Sequence record: PP925837.1
Length of the DNA stretch: 48,223 nt
DNA from: Escherichia phage Turner
Strand: one strand, 5' to 3'
The position numbers were made by a program, and so were the translations under genes. Numbering within the stretch: the first letter of the stretch is position 1; each line of letters begins with the position of its first letter. The notes below the pieces were generated by a model. It did not search any database and was not told the DNA's origin. It was given only the letters and a program-made list of their open reading frames with translations. This document shows, one piece after another, positions 5,014 to 13,058 of the stretch.

Positions 5014-5356
5014 GGCCTGTCAGTTTCTTAAGATATCCAGACCAACCGCCACCAACTGGATACGAACAGGCCGCCTACAGGCAACACGTAAAGATCCAAC
5101 CAAGCCAAAATCTCCTTACCTCACAACACGGCAAGCCTGCATTGCGGCGCTTCAGTCTCCGCTGCATACTGTCCAGGTGAGCGCGGGTGATGGCATAACA
5201 GAGGAAAGAAAATGTCACTCTTCCGCAGAAATGAAATATGGTATGCCTCGTATTCGCTCCCGGGCGGGAAACGAATTAAGGAATCTCTTGGCACAAAGGA
5301 CAAGCGGCAAGCTCAGGAGTTGCACGACAAGCGAAAAGCAGAACTCTGGCGAGTAG
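4985..5356 (+). CDS. xis: excisionase-like protein (AlpA/Xis-type HTH); 3' end unusually long, overlapping int by about 145 bp
   Basis: ATG 4985 with GAGG RBS; HTH-like segment [26 protein letters not shown] directly upstream of int; C-terminal part looks non-protein-like, so it may be extended or frameshifted. Confidence 0.5.
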
Positions 5357-6375
5357 AAAAGCTAGGGGATTTACCTGATGTCACTTTTGAAGAGGCCTGC
5401 CTAAGATGGCTTGAGGAAAAAGCTGATAAAAAATCTCTCGATTCAGATAAAAGCCGGATTGAGTTCTGGCTTGAACATTTTGAGGGTATAAGGCTTAAAG
5501 ATATCTCGGAGGCAAAGATTTACTCTGCTGTAAGCAGAATGCATAACAGAAAGACGAAAGAAATATGGAAACAGAAAGTTCAGGCCGCCATCAGGAAAGG
5601 TAAAGAACCGCCTGTTTATGAACCAAAGCCAGTATCAACTCAGACAAAGGCAAAGCATCTTGCCATGATAAAGGCCATTCTCCGTGCTGCAGAACGCGAC
5701 TGGAAGTGGCTGGAAAAAGCGCCTGTCATCAAGATACCAGCGGTCAGAAACAAGCGAGTCAGATGGCTGGAAAAGGAGGAAGCAAAACGCCTTATTGATG
5801 AGTGCCCCGAACCACTGAAATCTGTCGTCAAGTTTGCGCTGGCAACTGGTCTGAGAAAGTCGAACATCATAAATCTGGAATGGCAACAAATCGACATGCA
5901 GCGACGAGTTGCCTGGGTGAATCCAGAAGAGAGCAAATCAAACCGCGCCATTGGCGTGGCGCTGAACGATACCGCCTGTAAAGTGTTGCGTGATCAAATA
6001 GGCAAGCATCACAAATGGGTGTTTGTACATACCAAGGCGGCTAAGCGAGCAGATGGAACATCAACGCCTGCGGTCAGGAAGATGCGCATCGACAGCAAGA
6101 CATCATGGCTATCAGCTTGTCGTCGTGCAGGAATTGAAGATTTCCGTTTCCATGACCTCAGACACACCTGGGCAAGCTGGCTGATTCAGTCAGGCGTCCC
6201 ATTATCAGTGCTTCAGGAAATGGGCGGATGGGAGTCCATAGAAATGGTTCGTAGGTATGCTCACCTTGCGCCTAATCATTTGACAGAGCATGCGAGGAAA
6301 ATAGACGACATTTTTGGTGATAATGTCCCAAATATGTCCCACTCTGGAATTATGGAGGATATAAAGAAGGCGTAA
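5212..6375 (+). CDS. int: tyrosine site-specific integrase, DLP12 IntD-like
   Basis: 387 aa; C-terminal catalytic region with HDLRHT and [19 protein letters not shown] (Tyr); high similarity to recalled K-12 IntD; 3' end abuts the att core. Confidence 0.93.
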
Positions 6376-6390
6376 CTGATTGAATTGTAA

Positions 6391-6435
6391 TGGCGCGCCC
6401 TGCAGGATTCGAACCTGCGGCCCACGACTTAGAAG
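6391..6435 (-). other. attP core: 45 nt identical to the 3' end of tRNA-Arg(UCU) argU, including CCA; not an intact tRNA gene
   Basis: Reverse complement is CTTCTAAGTCGTGGGCCGCAGGTTCGAATCCTGCAGGGCGCGCCA, the anticodon-loop-to-CCA part of argU; the flanking 5' sequence cannot form the acceptor or D arm. Confidence 0.8.
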
Positions 6436-6859
6436 TTCCTAGAACGACATTTTAAGTCAACAACTTACCGCGCCATCTCTGCGCTCACACGTCCCACTAC
6501 CTCAAAACATGTAAAGCCTTGCAAGCCATTGTGAGGCCTTATGTGTCTCAGTTTTGTCCCTCTTTTTTGTACTAAAAAACATAGCAATTGAGGATAAACC
6601 TCATGCTATTTTCGCTTATATGCCTCTAAAGGCATGGCGCTTAAATAGATAAAAACACCACAAAAGCATAAAAAAACCACACAGTAAAACCGCAATATAA
6701 AACAATAACAGATAATTAAACCAAAAACAGATAGACGCATTGTGATAATCATTCAATACTAAACAAAATATAAACAGTGGAGCAATATGTAATTGACTCA
6801 TTAAGTTAGATATAAAAAATACATATTCAATCATTAAAACGATTGAATGGAGAACTTTT

Positions 6860-7813
6860 ATGCGGGCGAAACTTCTGGGAATAGTCCTGACAACCCCTAT
6901 TGCGATCAGCTCTTTTGCTTCTACCGAGACTATATCGTTTACTCCTGACAACATAAATGCGGACATTAGTCTTGGAACTCTGAGCGGAAAAACAAAAGAG
7001 CGCGTTTATCTAGCTGAAGAAGGAGGCCGAAAAGTCAGTCAACTCGACTGGAAATTCAATAACGCTGCAATTATTAAAGGTGCAATTAATTGGGATTTGA
7101 TGCCCCAGATATCTATTGGGGCTGCGGGCTGGACTACTCTCGGCAGCCGAGGTGGCAATATGGTCGATCAGGACTGGATGGATTCCAGTAACCCCGGAAC
7201 CTGGACAGATGAAAGTAGGCACCCTGATACACAACTCAATTATGCCAACGAATTTGATCTGAATATCAAAGGCTGGCTCCTCAACGAACCCAATTACCGC
7301 CTGGGACTCATGGCCGGATATCAGGAAAGCCGTTATAGCTTTACAGCCAGAGGTGGTTCCTATATCTACAGTTCTGAGGAGGGATTCAGAGATGATATCG
7401 GCTCCTTCCCGAATGGAGAAAGAGCAATCGGCTACAAACAACGTTTTAAAATGCCCTACATTGGCTTGACTGGAAGTTATCGTTATGAAGATTTTGAGCT
7501 AGGTGGCACATTTAAATACAGCGGCTGGGTGGAAGCATCTGATAACGATGAGCACTATGACCCAGGAAAAAGAATCACTTATCGCAGTAAAGTCAAAGAC
7601 CAAAATTACTATTCTGTTGCAGTCAATGCAGGTTATTACGTAACACCTAACGCAAAAGTTTATGTTGAAGGCGCATGGAATCGGGTTACGAATAAAAAAG
7701 GTAATACTTCACTTTATGATCACAATGATAACACTTCAGACTACAGCAAAAATGGTGCAGGCATAGAAAACTATAACTTCATCACTACTGCTGGTCTTAA
7801 GTACACCTTTTAA
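6860..7813 (+). CDS. ompT: OmpT outer-membrane protease (omptin)
   Basis: 317-aa product matches recalled E. coli OmpT (MRAKLLGIVLTTPIAISSFA...AGLKYTF); GGAG RBS. Confidence 0.95.
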   Translation: MRAKLLGIVLTTPIAISSFASTETISFTPDNINADISLGTLSGKTKERVYLAEEGGRKVSQLDWKFNNAAIIKGAINWDLMPQISIGAAGWTTLGSRGGNMVDQDWMDSSNPGTWTDESRHPDTQLNYANEFDLNIKGWLLNEPNYRLGLMAGYQESRYSFTARGGSYIYSSEEGFRDDIGSFPNGERAIGYKQRFKMPYIGLTGSYRYEDFELGGTFKYSGWVEASDNDEHYDPGKRITYRSKVKDQNYYSVAVNAGYYVTPNAKVYVEGAWNRVTNKKGNTSLYDHNDNTSDYSKNGAGIENYNFITTAGLKYTF

Positions 7814-11244: not shown

Positions 11245-11478
11245 ATGAAATCAAAAGACACCCTAAAGTGGTTCCCTGCGCAGCTTCCTGAAGTAAGAAT
11301 TATCCTAGGGGATGCTGTAGTGGAAGTAGCAAAACAGGGAAGACCTATCAATACCAGAACATTGCTTGATTACATTGAAGGAAACATAAAGAAAAAATCA
11401 TGGCTGGATAACAAAGAATTATTACAAACAGCGATATCAGTTCTTAAAGACAACCAAAATTTAAATGGTAAAATGTAA
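11245..11478 (+). CDS. small protein, YdfK/YnaE-like (Qin/Rac prophage cold-shock-associated family, recalled from memory)
   Basis: 77 aa from ATG 11245 (AAGGA RBS): MKSKDTLKWFPAQLPEVRIILGDAVVEVAKQGRPINTRTLLDYIEG...; lies next to the pin-like gene as in Rac/Qin. Confidence 0.6.
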   Translation: MKSKDTLKWFPAQLPEVRIILGDAVVEVAKQGRPINTRTLLDYIEGNIKKKSWLDNKELLQTAISVLKDNQNLNGKM

Positions 11479-11794
11479 TATAATAAACTTACTTTTTTAT
11501 CATTTTTCCACTTTAACAACATTTTGCTCCACTTTTCCACGATCAAACAACTTGAAATCTGGTTAAAATAACACGCAACACTATTCTTCTTCCTTGAGTC
11601 CGCCCGGAACTCGAAAAACAAACCGAGTTAAAGCCATTTTTCACAAAATCGATTTTGGGTCTCACCAAAATTACGGGGTTGCATACGCATTCGTTTATTT
11701 TCGAACGTGTACATACAAATATGCACAAAAATAATCAAAATTATTTTCTGAGATGCATTATGATATGAACACCAATTTCGTATAGAGTCTCACT

Positions 11795-12385
11795 ATGTCT
11801 CGAATTTTTGCTTACTGTCGGATATCAACGCTGGATCAGACCATCGAAAATCAACGCCGGGAAATCGAAAGTGCAGGTTTTAAAATCAAACCTCAGCAAA
11901 TAATCGAAGAACACATTAGCGGCTCAGCAGCAACCAGTGAGCGTCCTGGTTTTAACCGGTTGCTTGCTCGCCTGAAATGTGGTGATCAATTGATTGTGAC
12001 AAAACTGGATCGCCTTGGTTGTAATGCAATGGATATCAGGAAAACAGTGGAACAACTGACCGAAACAGGTATCAGAGTGCATTGCTTAGCATTGGGGGGC
12101 ATTGACCTGACCAGTCCAACAGGAAAAATGATGATGCACGTAATTTCAGCAGTCGCTGAATTTGAACGAGACCTTTTACTTGAACGCACTCATTCCGGGA
12201 TAGTAAGAGCCCGCGGCGCAGGGAAACGTTTTGGTCGACCACCTGTGTTAAATGAAGAACAGAAACAGGTGGTATTCGAACGAATTAAGTCAGGTGTAAG
12301 TATAAGTGCCATTGCCCGGGAATTCAAAACCTCGCGGCAAACCATTTTAAGAGCCAAAGCAAAACTTCAGACACCTGACATATAA
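11795..12385 (+). CDS. pin: small serine recombinase, DNA invertase family (PinQ/PinR-like)
   Basis: 196 aa; catalytic-Ser motif [15 protein letters not shown] motif, C-terminal HTH; convergent with tfa, as with pin genes next to stf/tfa in K-12 cryptic prophages. Confidence 0.85.
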
Positions 12386-12482
12386 AAAATAATCTCGGTG
12401 TGAGATGCTTTACGTCTTCCAAGCCCCCTTCCTTGCCGTAAATGGAAAGATACATCTAATTATAGAATTTATATGTTTTACC

Positions 12483-13058
12483 CTACGGCAGTGCTGGCCA
12501 TTCAATATCCTGTGCAGTTGACGTATCAACACGGTTCAGCAACACCCGATACTTTTTCCAGGCTTCCAGCAATGAGGTTTCTTCCTCCGTTGCGATTTCC
12601 AGATCTACAGCATCCTGAAGTGGCGCAATATGCTCACTGGCTACCTGCATCAGGCTGTTTTTTGTTTCTTCCGCCTCTCGGATCCGGAACAGTTTTTCTG
12701 CTTCTGCATCTTTCACCCAGGCTGTGCCGTTCCACTTCTGAAACTCCCCTTCCGGCGATAACCAGGTAACATTTTCCGGTAACGGACCGAGTTCAGAAAT
12801 AAATAACGCGTCCCCTGACGCTACGTCATAAACCGTTTTACCCCGATGGTCTTCAACGAGATGCCACGATGCCTCATCACTGTTGAAAACAGCCACAAAG
12901 CCAGCAGGAATATCTGGTGGTGCAATATCGGTACTGTTTGCTGGCAGACCTGTATGAGGCGGAATATATGCGTCACCTTCACCAATAAATTCATTAGTTC
13001 CGGCCAGCAGATTATAAATTTTTATGGTCCGTGCTTGTTCACTCATTCTGAATGCCAT
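12483..13058 (-). CDS. tfa: tail-fibre assembly protein Tfa
   Basis: 191 aa; C-terminus ...[48 protein letters not shown]; ATG overlaps stf stop. Confidence 0.9.
12511..12630. repeat. direct repeat copy B (partner of 9741-9860; 40-bp perfect core 12578-12617)
   Basis: Read directly; lies within the tfa C-terminal coding sequence. Confidence 0.85.

What the first reader, a model, noticed from the sequence alone, without database searches (positions are those of the whole stretch)
5212..12630. Apparently intact counterpart of the cryptic prophage DLP12, with lambda-like structural genes
An IntD-like integrase, an attP core identical to the argU 3' end, EmrE plus YbcK, YbcN/NinE/YbcO/RusA, QuuD-like Q, NmpC, EssD/RrrD-like lysis proteins, a YbcY-like methyltransferase, a TfaX-like remnant and OmpT are all DLP12 markers of E. 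coli K-12. Here they sit in a complete genome with full lambda-like recombination, replication and morphogenesis modules. That implies ompT, nmpC and emrE can travel as phage cargo on a potentially inducible phage.
Basis: partly seen in the sequence, partly recalled or inferred. Interest (0 to 1): 0.7.

Follow-up and report, generated by a model that had tools for sequence, protein, structure and literature searches.

The report
Intact DLP12-type lambdoid phage genome
The window is a complete, apparently functional lambda-like temperate phage that is the undamaged relative of E. coli K-12's cryptic prophage DLP12 and carries ompT, nmpC and emrE, but plaque-forming phages of this kind are already sequenced, so it is an ordinary new member of a known group.

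Summary
K-12 DLP12 maps onto the window in 11 collinear blocks at 94-100% identity. All 19 DLP12 proteins that have a counterpart in the window are 89-100% identical. The attP core (6391-6435) equals the last 45 nt of argU, and its two flanks match DLP12 attL and attR exactly.

The window is a whole, circularly permuted 48.2-kb lambdoid genome. It has lambda Nu1 through Tfa at full length, an exact cosN, the G-T slippery site, O/P with five origin iterons, exo-bet-gam, an S24-type repressor, Xis, Int, Q and a lysis cassette. It has no IS element and no internal stop codon. It carries intact versions of genes that are broken in K-12: nmpC, ren, ybcY, xis, exo and A.

Only int through pin lies in the stated coordinates. 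The other markers sit at 36.7-45.9 kb.

Twelve phage records carry this ompT, 35 carry nmpC (including the classic PA-2 lc gene) and 11 carry emrE-ybcK. The plaque-forming phage PhiR68_2 covers 93.5% of DLP12, against 75.9% for the window. Mathieu et al. 2020 already reported an omptin and EmrE on viable gut lambda phages. Hundreds of E. coli genomes hold such prophages at argU. Interest is low.

The parts
70..300 (-). cro-like early repressor (YdaS type)
   Evidence: PHROG 35, E 1.5e-27. 100% identical to the gene of plaque-forming PhiR34_1.
405..1094 (+). cI-like prophage repressor with an S24 (LexA-type) self-cleaving domain (the ORF opens at 339)
   Evidence: PHROG 4 and PHROG 6201. Ala-Gly, GDSM and KRL motifs are visible in the translation. 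100% identical to cI of PhiR26_1. PGAP calls the prophage copy 'S24 family peptidase'.
1689..3735 (+). kil (1689-1895), gam (1971-2267), bet (2273-3058) and exo (3055-3735): the lambda Red recombination module
   Evidence: Protein identity to lambda: Bet 99.6%, Exo 97.8%, Gam 85%. kil matches PHROG 294.
4985..5356 (+). xis (excisionase), intact; K-12 xisD keeps only the 3' part
   Evidence: PHROG 2907 excisionase, E 4.4e-46, covering profile positions 2-117 of 117. 100% identical in PhiR30_1. The DLP12 match stops at window 5117.
5212..6375 (+). IntD-type tyrosine integrase
   Evidence: 385 of 387 residues identical to K-12 IntD. 100% identical to the integrase of phage 2G7b.
6391..6435 (.). 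attP core, equal to the 3' end of tRNA-Arg(UCU) argU
   Evidence: 45-nt exact match to the argU 3' end. The flanks are identical to K-12 attL (int side) and attR (ompT side).
6860..7813 (+). ompT, an omptin outer-membrane protease (cargo gene)
   Evidence: NCBIfam NF008222 scores 708 bits against a cut-off of 537. Three substitutions relative to K-12, with D83, D85, D210 and H212 kept. 100% DNA identity to ev243.
8000..9484 (+). secreted alpha/beta hydrolase (TAP-like, S33-type), a cargo gene sitting where K-12 has appY; terminator-like hairpin at 9505-9540
   Evidence: Pfam Abhydrolase_1 and Abhydrolase_4. Signal-peptide-like N-terminus. 14-bp stem terminator-like site. Matches PADLOC candidate PDLC01094, E 6.8e-56.
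9667..9972 (-). TfaX-like remnant of a tail-fibre assembly gene
   Evidence: 100% identical to K-12 TfaX over 61 aa. Pfam Caudo_TAP, C-terminal part only. Forms a 146-nt direct repeat with the tfa 3' end at 12505-12650.
10029..10697 (+). ybcY, a class I SAM-dependent methyltransferase; intact here, a pseudogene in K-12
   Evidence: Pfam Methyltransf_12 and related families. The K-12 copy lacks the start codon.
11212..12385 (+). ydfK/ynaE-like gene (11212-11478) and a PinR-like serine recombinase (11795-12385); both absent from K-12 DLP12
   Evidence: The closest NCBIfam models for Pin are serine recombinases or invertases, all well below their curated cut-offs (best 87 bits against 272). PGAP names the prophage copies ydfK and 'recombinase family protein'. 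98-100% identical in PhiR34_1. No flanking inverted repeat was found.
12483..17081 (-). tfa (12483-13058), side tail fibre stf (13058-16423, 1121 aa) and lom (16482-17081)
   Evidence: Tfa is 94.8% identical to lambda. Stf matches Pfam phage_tail_N, Gp34_trimer and Collar.
17148..35859 (-). lambda morphogenesis genes J, I, K, L, M, H, T, G, V, U, Z, FII, FI, E, D, C/Nu3, B, W, A and Nu1
   Evidence: All are full length at 81-100% identity to lambda. 97.1% DNA identity over 18.46 kb. The G-T slippery site is identical to lambda.
36037..36048 (-). cosN cohesive-end sequence GGGCGGCGACCT
   Evidence: Exact single match, at the point where the alignment to the lambda left end starts.
36248..37096 (+). 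ylcI (36248-36442) and bor (36803-37096)
   Evidence: YlcI 96.8% and BorD 89.7% identical to K-12.
37128..38298 (-). lysis cassette: Rz/Rz1 (RzpD/RzoD), endolysin (RrrD) and holin (EssD)
   Evidence: EssD 100%, RrrD 98.8%, RzpD 95.4% and RzoD 96.7% identical to K-12.
38887..39984 (+). nmpC porin (cargo gene), intact and without the IS5 of K-12
   Evidence: 362 of 365 residues match the IS5-less K-12 reconstruction. 98.7% DNA identity to phage PA-2 lc, J02580. Scores above the cut-off for NCBIfam porin OmpC subfamily NF007841.
40174..42145 (-). QuuD-type Q antiterminator (40174-40557) and the nin region: ylcG, rusA, ybcO, ninE, ybcN, ylcH
   Evidence: 89-100% identical to the K-12 proteins. Pfam Phage_antitermQ, E 8.5e-54.
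42235..43376 (-). orf118 (unknown function) and a P22AR C-terminal-domain protein; they occupy the position of K-12 ybcL-ybcM
   Evidence: orf118 has no Pfam or PADLOC match and was not scanned against PHROGs. The protein is listed in 3,872 blocks of public assemblies. P22_AR_C, E 1.1e-15.
43488..45603 (-). ybcK large serine recombinase (43488-45014), frameshifted ylcJ, and the emrE SMR efflux pump (45271-45603)
   Evidence: YbcK 99.8% and EmrE 98.2% identical to K-12, with EmrE E14 kept. The same cassette occurs in 11 phage records.
45671..48223 (-). ren, replication genes P and O with the origin (five 20-nt iterons at 47134-47248), and a cII-position YdaT-like regulator (47684-48223)
   Evidence: P 97.9%, Ren 91% and O 66.7% identical to lambda. 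Iterons. PHROG 163 'CII-like' and Pfam YdaT_toxin.

Best explanation
The window is the complete, circularly permuted genome (48,223 bp) of a lambdoid temperate siphovirus of the DLP12 lineage.

Shown by sequence:
- It combines lambda-type cos packaging, head and tail genes, Red recombination and O/P replication with the DLP12-type modules: IntD and Xis, an attP in the argU 3' end, the ybcN-ninE-ybcO-rusA nin region, the QuuD antiterminator and the EssD/RrrD/Rz lysis cassette.
- It carries cargo genes at three standard cargo positions. emrE-ybcK lies after ren. nmpC lies between Q and the holin. ompT, a secreted hydrolase, ybcY, ydfK and pin lie between the tail-fibre genes and attP.

Inferred mechanism:
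- Int recombines attP (6391-6435) with argU. This regenerates the tRNA 3' end and places int at the argU end and ompT at the far end, next to envY, as in K-12.
- The S24-type repressor holds the prophage silent, while the low-GC cargo genes are expressed from their own promoters.
- RecA-stimulated self-cleavage of the repressor, followed by Xis plus Int excision, lambda-type replication, Q-dependent late transcription, cos packaging and holin/endolysin/spanin lysis, would release virions that carry the cargo to a new host.

Origin of K-12 DLP12: it is what remains of such a phage after three deletions, two IS insertions and some module replacements. The deletions correspond to window 5117-3761, window 3456 across the permutation point to 46281, and window 35032-12912, about 29 kb in all. 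The insertions are IS3 in ren and IS5 in nmpC.
For: DLP12 is collinear with the window, and the deletion end points come from the same alignment. The attP core and both flanks equal attL and attR.

Lambda structural, Red and replication proteins are all full length. There is 18.46 kb at 97.1% identity to lambda. cosN is exact, the origin iterons are present and the G-T slippery site is conserved.

The repressor, cro and cII-position genes are identified. No gene has an internal stop, and 63 of 64 genes have full-length matches in plaque-forming phages.

The same genome is found as an integrated 48.2-kb prophage between envY and argU in E. coli QML220601, with the window ends contiguous there.

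In E. coli SCU-171 a full prophage of this type lies in tandem with a decayed DLP12-type remnant. This gives two ompT copies and an int'-att-ompT joint, which is evidence of a second integration at the locus. A dozen or more further top hits list ompT twice and probably have the same arrangement, but they were not inspected.

Related isolated phages plaque on K-12, E. coli C or ECOR13.
Against: No experiment shows that this exact genome can be induced or forms plaques. Missense defects and defects in regulatory sites cannot be seen by these tests.

No N-type antiterminator gene was found between cI and kil. The early antitermination step is therefore unexplained, although plaque-forming PhiR34_1 has the same layout.

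The side tail fibre (84% to the best relative), G (82%) and FI (90%) are the least conserved structural proteins.

The source record of the window was not identified.
Confidence: 0.9

Rival explanations
1. The genome is intact in gene content but is in fact a defective or non-inducible prophage copy, carrying point mutations or regulatory lesions that ORF-level checks cannot see.
For: Nothing here tests function. ylcJ is frameshifted (the QML220601 prophage copy is also flagged as frameshifted). No N gene was found. Public assemblies hold many decayed copies of this prophage type.
Against: Every essential gene is full length and 82-100% identical to a counterpart in a plaque-forming phage. cI, cro, Xis, Int, R, S and Nu1 are 100% identical. 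The sequence is in the excised form, with int-attP-ompT contiguous. That form is expected of virion or circular DNA, not of an integrated remnant.
Confidence: 0.07
2. The window is a laboratory or in-host recombinant that lambda formed by picking up DLP12 segments from a K-12-type cryptic prophage, like 434B or the lambda qsr' hybrids. It would then not be a natural intact DLP12-type phage.
For: Such recombinants exist. Phage 434B replaced about 5.5 kb (Q, late promoter, lysis region) with DLP12 sequence (PMC9119081). The phage 434 record carries nmpC with the IS5 insertion. The structural region of the window is 97% identical to lambda.
Against: The window holds intact versions of genes that are broken in K-12 and so cannot have come from K-12 DLP12: nmpC without IS5, ren without IS3, ybcY with its start codon, full xis, exo and A. 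It differs by about 3% from both lambda and DLP12. It is 92% (identity x coverage) the same as a wild prophage at argU in a yak isolate.
Confidence: 0.02
3. The window is an assembly chimera that joins a DLP12 remnant to another lambdoid prophage of the same strain.
For: Lambdoid prophages share long near-identical segments that can mislead short-read assemblers. No phage record covers 80% or more of the first half of the window.
Against: All module junctions are also present in independent complete genomes and phage isolates. QML220601 is collinear over 94% of the window, including across the window ends. PhiR68_2 aligns to 88% of it. The attP flanks match attL and attR exactly.
Confidence: 0.01

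Closest known systems
Cryptic prophage DLP12 (qsr') of E. coli K-12, NC_000913.3 564755-586056
   Same: The integrase (99.5%), the attachment site in argU, emrE-ybcK, ybcN-ninE-ybcO-rusA-ylcG, quuD, nmpC, essD-rrrD-rzpD, borD, ylcI, nohD, ybcY, tfaX and ompT are shared, in the same order. 75.9% of the non-IS DLP12 sequence aligns at 97.0%.
   Different: DLP12 lacks about 29 kb that the window has: the xis 5' part, most of exo, bet, gam, kil, the immunity region, O, part of P, and everything from within A to within tfa. DLP12 carries IS3 in ren and IS5 in nmpC. It has ybcL-ybcM, ybcV-ybcW and appY where the window has orf118 plus P22AR-C, nothing, and the alpha/beta hydrolase respectively. It also lacks pin and ydfK.
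Escherichia phage PhiR68_2 (PV340576.1) and its relatives PhiR26_1, PhiR30_1 and PhiR34_1
   Same: These are plaque-forming lambdoid phages with IntD-type integrase, lambda-like structural genes, the QuuD/EssD/RrrD late region and the nmpC (OmpD) porin. They carry ompT and/or emrE-ybcK. Identity x coverage with the window is 83-85%. The records name K-12, E. coli C or ECOR13 as host. The link to the ECOR temperate-phage panel of Brenes & Laub 2025 is my inference from the names and from the citation; that paper was not held.
   Different: PhiR68_2 has a different repressor region and also carries ybcL, ybcM and appY, so it covers 93.5% of DLP12. It lacks the hydrolase (window 7864-9742), orf118 (42231-43448) and parts of stf and J. 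PhiR34_1 lacks ompT. PhiR26_1 and PhiR30_1 lack emrE.
Escherichia phages 2G7b (NC_049954, genus Nesevirus) and ev243 (NC_049955), from infant-gut E. coli (Mathieu et al. 2020, PMC6969025)
   Same: Both are virion-derived genomes in which int, attP, ompT, the hydrolase, the tfa remnant and ybcY are contiguous, as in the window. The integrase is 100% identical and ompT is 99.9-100% identical. The paper reports a 'SopA' outer-membrane protease on two lambda phages and EmrE on two lambda genomes.
   Different: 2G7b has an N gene, a different immunity region, NinB and a DNA methyltransferase in the nin region, and no emrE-ybcK or pin-ydfK. Identity x coverage is 71%.
Bacteriophage lambda (NC_001416)
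   Same: The cos site, Nu1 through Tfa, exo-bet-gam, P, ren, Rz and bor are shared. 55% of the window aligns at 95.9%.
   Different: These differ: integrase and att site (argU, not attB between gal and bio), immunity region, absence of N, the N-terminal part of O and the iterons, the nin region, Q, holin and endolysin, and the whole cargo set.
Lambdoid phage PA-2 lc porin gene (J02580.1)
   Same: The window nmpC is 98.7% identical in DNA to lc of phage PA-2. From my own knowledge, this is the classic 1980s case of a porin gene carried by a viable lambdoid phage.
   Different: Only a 2.8-kb fragment of PA-2 is in the collection, so the rest of that genome cannot be compared.

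Membership tests
DLP12-lineage lambdoid prophage or phage (argU-integrating) | IntD-type tyrosine integrase | tested here: met
   385 of 387 residues identical to K-12 IntD.
DLP12-lineage lambdoid prophage or phage (argU-integrating) | Attachment core identical to the 3' end of argU, with arms matching DLP12 attL and attR | tested here: met
   45-nt exact core at 6391-6435, and both flanks identical to K-12 attL and attR. Related prophages lie between argU and envY.
DLP12-lineage lambdoid prophage or phage (argU-integrating) | DLP12 gene order and orthologues: emrE-ybcK ... 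ybcN-ninE-ybcO-rusA-quuD-nmpC-essD-rrrD-rzpD-borD ... nohD ... ybcY-tfaX ... ompT | tested here: met
   11 collinear DNA blocks at 94-100%. Proteins are 89-100% identical. ybcL, ybcM, ybcV, ybcW and appY are absent.
Lambda-like (cos) siphovirus, Lambdavirus/Nesevirus group | Lambda-type terminase, cos site and a collinear head-tail gene set including the G-T frameshift | tested here: met
   Nu1 through Tfa are full length at 81-100%. cosN is exact. The slippery site is identical to lambda.
Lambda-like (cos) siphovirus, Lambdavirus/Nesevirus group | Genus-level nucleotide similarity (about 70% identity x coverage; this is my recollection of the ICTV rule) | tested here: inconclusive
   53% to lambda and 71% to 2G7b (Nesevirus); 83-85% to the unclassified PhiR phages. 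The values are a BLAST-based approximation, not VIRIDIC.
Functional, inducible temperate phage | All essential lytic and lysogenic genes intact | tested here: met
   No internal stops. 63 of 64 genes have full-length counterparts in plaque-forming phages. Origin iterons are present.
Functional, inducible temperate phage | Induction, excision and plaque formation observed | not testable with these tools
   This needs a lysogen and mitomycin C or UV induction. The only support is by analogy with PhiR26_1, PhiR30_1, PhiR34_1, PhiR68_2, 2G7b and ev243.
Omptin family (OmpT) | Full-length match above the curated cut-off, with catalytic Asp83/Asp85 and Asp210/His212 | tested here: met
   NF008222 scores 708 bits against a cut-off of 537. 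All four catalytic residues are present, and there are three substitutions relative to K-12.
Pin/Gin/Cin tail-fibre inversion system | An invertase next to a segment flanked by inverted crossover sites that holds alternative tail-fibre C-termini and tfa genes | tested here: not met
   A PinR-like recombinase is present (11795-12385). No inverted repeat flanks tfa or stf, and the second tfa fragment is in direct orientation.
N-dependent lambdoid early antitermination | An N-like gene downstream of pL with nutL and nutR (boxA plus boxB) | tested here: not met
   There is no ORF of 40 aa or more on the sense strand between cI and kil apart from a 133-aa TTG ORF that has no PHROG match and overlaps kil. 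A boxA-like CGCTCTTTA follows cro, but I saw no boxB hairpin by eye.

The most novel reading that the evidence does not exclude
The DLP12 lineage may be an actively circulating phage population that keeps re-seeding the argU locus. K-12's 'fossil' would then be a recently decayed or recombinationally refreshed copy, given its 97-100% identity to viable phages. Turnover of ompT, nmpC and emrE alleles, and even duplication of ompT in tandem arrays such as SCU-171, would be driven by ongoing phage infection. A second possibility is that these N-less phages use an uncharacterised early antitermination or terminator-free strategy. Neither idea is excluded by the evidence, and neither was tested beyond the observations reported here.
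Probability: 0.15. Interest if true: 0.35.

Novelty: new member of a known kind. Interest (0 to 1): 0.15.

Why it matters
The window gives a clean reference for reconstructing how K-12 DLP12 decayed: three deletions, two IS insertions and some module swaps. It also confirms that a surface protease (OmpT), a porin (NmpC) and an SMR efflux pump (EmrE) sit on one apparently mobile phage genome. That is useful for annotation and for teaching. It does not change current understanding. Plaque-forming phages with the same integrase, att site and cargo are already deposited, one of them (PhiR68_2) is closer to DLP12 than the window is, and phage carriage of these cargo genes has been published.

Tried and rejected
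(1) I looked for a Pin-type invertible tail-fibre segment around pin, tfa and stf. There are no flanking inverted repeats, only a 146-nt direct repeat of the tfa 3' end. I rejected the idea.

(2) I looked for an N antiterminator and nut sites. I found no gene, only a boxA-like motif after cro. Rfam gave nothing relevant in 1-2000. This is left unexplained.

(3) An Rfam scan of the whole window gave only IS009 (RF02111) inside tfa. I did not treat it as an independent feature.

(4) ARAGORN found no tRNA gene in the window. This is consistent with attP holding only a 45-nt tRNA 3' fragment.

(5) A literature search for an explicit description of 'DLP12-like' intact phages returned nothing useful. 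Brenes & Laub 2025, Lindsey et al. 1989 and Highton et al. 1985 are not held. They are cited only through other papers' reference lists.

(6) I tried to find the source record of the window. No phage record covers 80% or more of the first half. The urinary coliphage paper and the Chi-rich lambdoid paper were not informative. The source remains unidentified.

(7) A PADLOC scan of the cargo proteins gave only one candidate-family hit, for the hydrolase. No recognised defence system was found among the ten proteins tested.

(8) The promoter and terminator scan of 5000-13100 found no more sites than the shuffled controls. I used it only for the strong hairpin after the hydrolase gene.

Full report
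**What is in the window.** The 48,223-bp window has the layout of a lambda genome, reverse-complemented and circularly permuted (ORF list).
- The early-left operon and int are on the + strand at 0.3-6.4 kb.
- A low-GC block (36-46% GC) with + strand genes lies at 6.4-12.4 kb.
- Tail and head genes are on the - strand at 12.5-35.9 kb.
- The late-control, nin and replication region is on the - strand at 36-48.2 kb.
- No tRNA gene is present.

**Check of the observation against K-12.** I fetched NC_000913.3 563500-587500, which holds argU, the annotated 21.3-kb DLP12 and envY. I then aligned it to the window. DLP12 falls into 11 collinear blocks in reverse orientation:

| DLP12 segment | Window coordinates | Identity |
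|---|---|---|
| argU 3' end, intD, xisD | 6438-5117 | 99.6% |
| exoD | 3761-3456 | 100% |
| peaD, renD part 1 | 46281-45883 | 94% |
| renD part 2, emrE, ylcJ, ybcK | 45884-43449 | 98.4% |
| ylcH through quuD | 42230-39918 | 96.9% |
| nmpC through borD | 39926-36749 | 94.8% |
| ylcI, nohD, aaaD | 36459-35032 | 98.3% |
| tfaD | 12912-12496 | 97.1% |
| ybcY, tfaX | 10738-9743 | 97.3% |
| ompT to attR | 7863-6389 | 96.9% |

The eleventh block is a short 112-nt match at 83% identity between borD and ylcI (window 36625-36515).

YbcL, YbcM, YbcV, YbcW and AppY have no counterpart in the window.

The two blocks that carry the prophage ends overlap in the window. The core at 6391-6435 is an exact 45-nt copy of the argU 3' end. 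The sequence to its left is identical to K-12 attL on the int side. The sequence to its right is identical to K-12 attR on the ompT side. The window therefore contains precisely the attP that DLP12 attL x attR recombination would regenerate.

The stated coordinates (5212-12630) cover only int, attP, ompT, a hydrolase, the tfaX-like remnant, ybcY, ydfK, pin and the tfa 3' end. The other markers lie at 36.7-45.9 kb.

**Is it intact?**
- Structural genes: tblastn with all lambda proteins shows Nu1, A, W, B, C/Nu3, D, E, FI, FII, Z, U, V, G, T, H, M, L, K, I, J and Tfa full length at 81-100% identity. Bet (99.6%), Exo (97.8%), P (97.9%), Ren, Rz/Rz1 and Bor are also present.
- Lambda 1-18461 aligns to window 36048-17590 at 97.1%.
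- The 12-nt cosN sequence is present once, exactly, at 36037-36048.
- The G-T slippery site is identical to lambda.
- The O gene contains five 20-nt iterons next to an AT-rich stretch.
- The immunity region encodes an S24-type cI-like repressor, a cro-like protein and a YdaT-type protein at the cII position. An excisionase ORF covers the whole PHROG profile.
- I compared a curated set of 64 genes with five plaque-forming phages: lambda, 2G7b, PhiR26_1, PhiR30_1 and PhiR34_1. None has an internal stop, and 63 have a 96-100%-coverage match. cI, cro, Xis, Int, OmpT, R, S and Nu1 match at 100% identity.
- Genes that are pseudogenes in K-12 are whole here. nmpC matches 362 of 365 residues once IS5 is removed, and ybcY has the start codon that K-12 lacks. 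ren, xis, exo and A are also whole.
- Only the tiny ylcJ is frameshifted.
- The IS3 and IS5 of K-12 DLP12 are absent.

**Is the window a whole genome?** The prophage of E. coli QML220601 (NZ_CP132063.1) lies between envY and argU, the same chromosomal slot as DLP12. It aligns to 94% of the window. Its position 42419 pairs with window 48223 and its position 42420 pairs with window 1, so the window ends are contiguous. The window is in the excised form, with int-attP-ompT joined. That is expected for virion or circular phage DNA.

**How DLP12 relates to it.** Mapped on the window, K-12 DLP12 differs as follows:
- Three deletions: window 5117-3761; window 3456 across the permutation point to 46281; and window 35032-12912. 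They total about 29 kb.
- Two insertions: IS3 in ren and IS5 in nmpC.
- Module differences: ybcL-ybcM in place of orf118 plus P22AR-C; ybcV-ybcW present; appY in place of the alpha/beta hydrolase; pin and ydfK absent.

Each of those K-12 modules is itself found in a plaque-forming relative: ybcL-ybcM in PhiR34_1, ybcV-ybcW in PhiR26_1, and appY in PhiR68_2.

**The region of the finding in detail.**
- OmpT passes the NCBIfam omptin model (708 bits against a cut-off of 537) and keeps its four catalytic residues.
- The next gene encodes a 494-aa alpha/beta hydrolase with a signal-peptide-like N-terminus and a TAP-like C-terminal domain, followed by a strong hairpin. It matches a PADLOC candidate family. 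Its function is unknown.
- The TfaX-like remnant and the 3' end of the intact tfa form a 146-nt direct repeat (84%) that brackets ybcY, ydfK and pin.
- Relatives have either tfa-ybcY-tfaX' (PhiR26_1, PhiR30_1, 2G7b) or tfa-pin-ydfK (PhiR34_1). The window and PhiR68_2 have both. I infer that cargo is exchanged here by recombination at tfa 3' ends.
- There is no inverted repeat, so Pin has no invertible segment here.

**Comparison with what is known.**
- Phage records: twelve hold this ompT at 97.8-100% identity, with ev243 at 100%. Thirty-five hold nmpC-like porins, including phage PA-2 lc at 98.7%. Eleven hold emrE-ybcK.
- 2G7b and ev243 have int-attP-ompT contiguous, like the window.
- The PhiR phages are recorded with K-12, E. 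coli C or ECOR13 as host. I take them to be the panel of lambda-related temperate phages attributed to Brenes & Laub 2025; that paper was not held, so the link is inferred.
- PhiR68_2 carries IntD, EmrE, YbcK, YbcL, YbcM, the nin genes, Q, NmpC, the lysis genes, Pin, YbcY, TfaX, AppY and OmpT. It covers 93.5% of non-IS DLP12 at 97.8%, against 75.9% at 97.0% for the window.
- Identity x coverage of the window is 92% to the QML220601 prophage, 83-85% to the PhiR phages, 71% to 2G7b, 53% to lambda and 29% to DLP12.
- Among 5,426 complete E. coli genomes, 671 hold at least 80% of window 1-6435 in one place. In 244 genomes one place covers at least 80% of 5212-12630.
- In strain SCU-171 a full prophage of this type sits in tandem with a decayed DLP12-type remnant, giving two ompT copies and an int'-att-ompT joint. 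This indicates repeated integration at the locus. A dozen or more further top hits list ompT twice, but I did not inspect them.
- The orf118 protein alone is listed in 3,872 blocks of public assemblies, in intact and decayed contexts.

**Rivals.**
- A lambda x K-12 DLP12 laboratory recombinant, like 434B, is excluded. The window has intact versions of genes that are broken in K-12 and differs by about 3% from both parents.
- An assembly chimera is unlikely, because every junction recurs in independent complete genomes and isolates.
- A cryptic functional defect cannot be excluded without an experiment.

**Verdict.** The window is an apparently functional DLP12-type lambdoid phage genome. It is a new mosaic member of a kind that is already sequenced, isolated and partly published, so interest is low (0.15).

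**Loose ends.** These are the absence of an N gene, the unknown roles of the secreted hydrolase, YbcY, YbcK and orf118, and the unidentified source record.

Noticed in passing
window 1094-1689, and window 1-70 with 48120-48223: No N-type antiterminator gene lies between the repressor gene and kil. A pL-like TTGACG-17-TATAGT with ACAAC/GTTGT operator-like repeats sits at about 1370-1420. A boxA-like CGCTCTTTA follows the cro stop codon, and I saw no boxB hairpin by eye. Plaque-forming PhiR34_1 has the same layout, so early antitermination in this subgroup is unexplained.
   Followed up: partly
L008 (E. coli SCU-171, NZ_CP054363.1 4418897-4437740); possibly other top hits: A full DLP12-type prophage lies in tandem with a decayed DLP12-type remnant. 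This gives two ompT copies, two ybcY-type methyltransferase genes and a chromosomal int'(3' part)-att-ompT joint. It indicates a second integration at argU next to an older remnant. A dozen or more further top hits also list ompT twice but were not inspected.
   Followed up: partly
window 8000-9540: A 494-aa secreted alpha/beta hydrolase (Abhydrolase_1 plus a TAP-like C-terminal domain) sits between ompT and the tfaX remnant, where K-12 has appY. It is followed by a 14-bp-stem terminator-like hairpin. It matches PADLOC candidate family PDLC01094 (E 6.8e-56). Its function is unknown.
   Followed up: partly
window 9734-9879 and 12505-12650: A 146-nt direct repeat (84%) of the tfa 3' end brackets the ybcY-ydfK-pin cassette. 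Relatives carry one or the other half of the cassette, which suggests cargo exchange by recombination at tfa 3' ends.
   Followed up: partly
window 11795-12385: A PinR-like serine recombinase lies next to tfa with no invertible segment: no inverted crossover repeats were found. It appears to be an orphan invertase, as I recall for Rac and Qin of K-12.
   Followed up: yes
window 12517-12715 (- strand): The Rfam family IS009 (RF02111) matches at 226.7 bits entirely inside the tail-fibre assembly gene tfa. The RNA family model probably just reflects conserved prophage tfa sequence.
   Followed up: no
window 42235-42591 (- strand): orf118 has no Pfam or PADLOC match (it was not scanned against PHROGs). 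It is absent from the five plaque-forming phages I compared, yet the exact protein is listed in 3,872 blocks of public assemblies, always just upstream of ylcH-ybcN in lambdoid prophages.
   Followed up: partly
window 43488-45603 (- strand): emrE travels with ybcK, a 508-aa large serine recombinase (Resolvase, Recombinase and Zn-ribbon domains), as one cassette after ren in 11 phage records. The phage also has a tyrosine integrase, so the role of YbcK is unclear.
   Followed up: no
window 45075-45222 (- strand): ylcJ is split over two reading frames. PGAP also flags the copy in the QML220601 prophage as frameshifted.
   Followed up: no
window 47134-47248: Five 20-nt near-palindromic iterons (TTTACCTGATTCGGGTAAAC) and an adjacent AT-rich stretch lie inside the O gene. 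They differ from the lambda iterons, in step with the diverged N-terminal part of O (66.7% overall identity to lambda O).
   Followed up: yes
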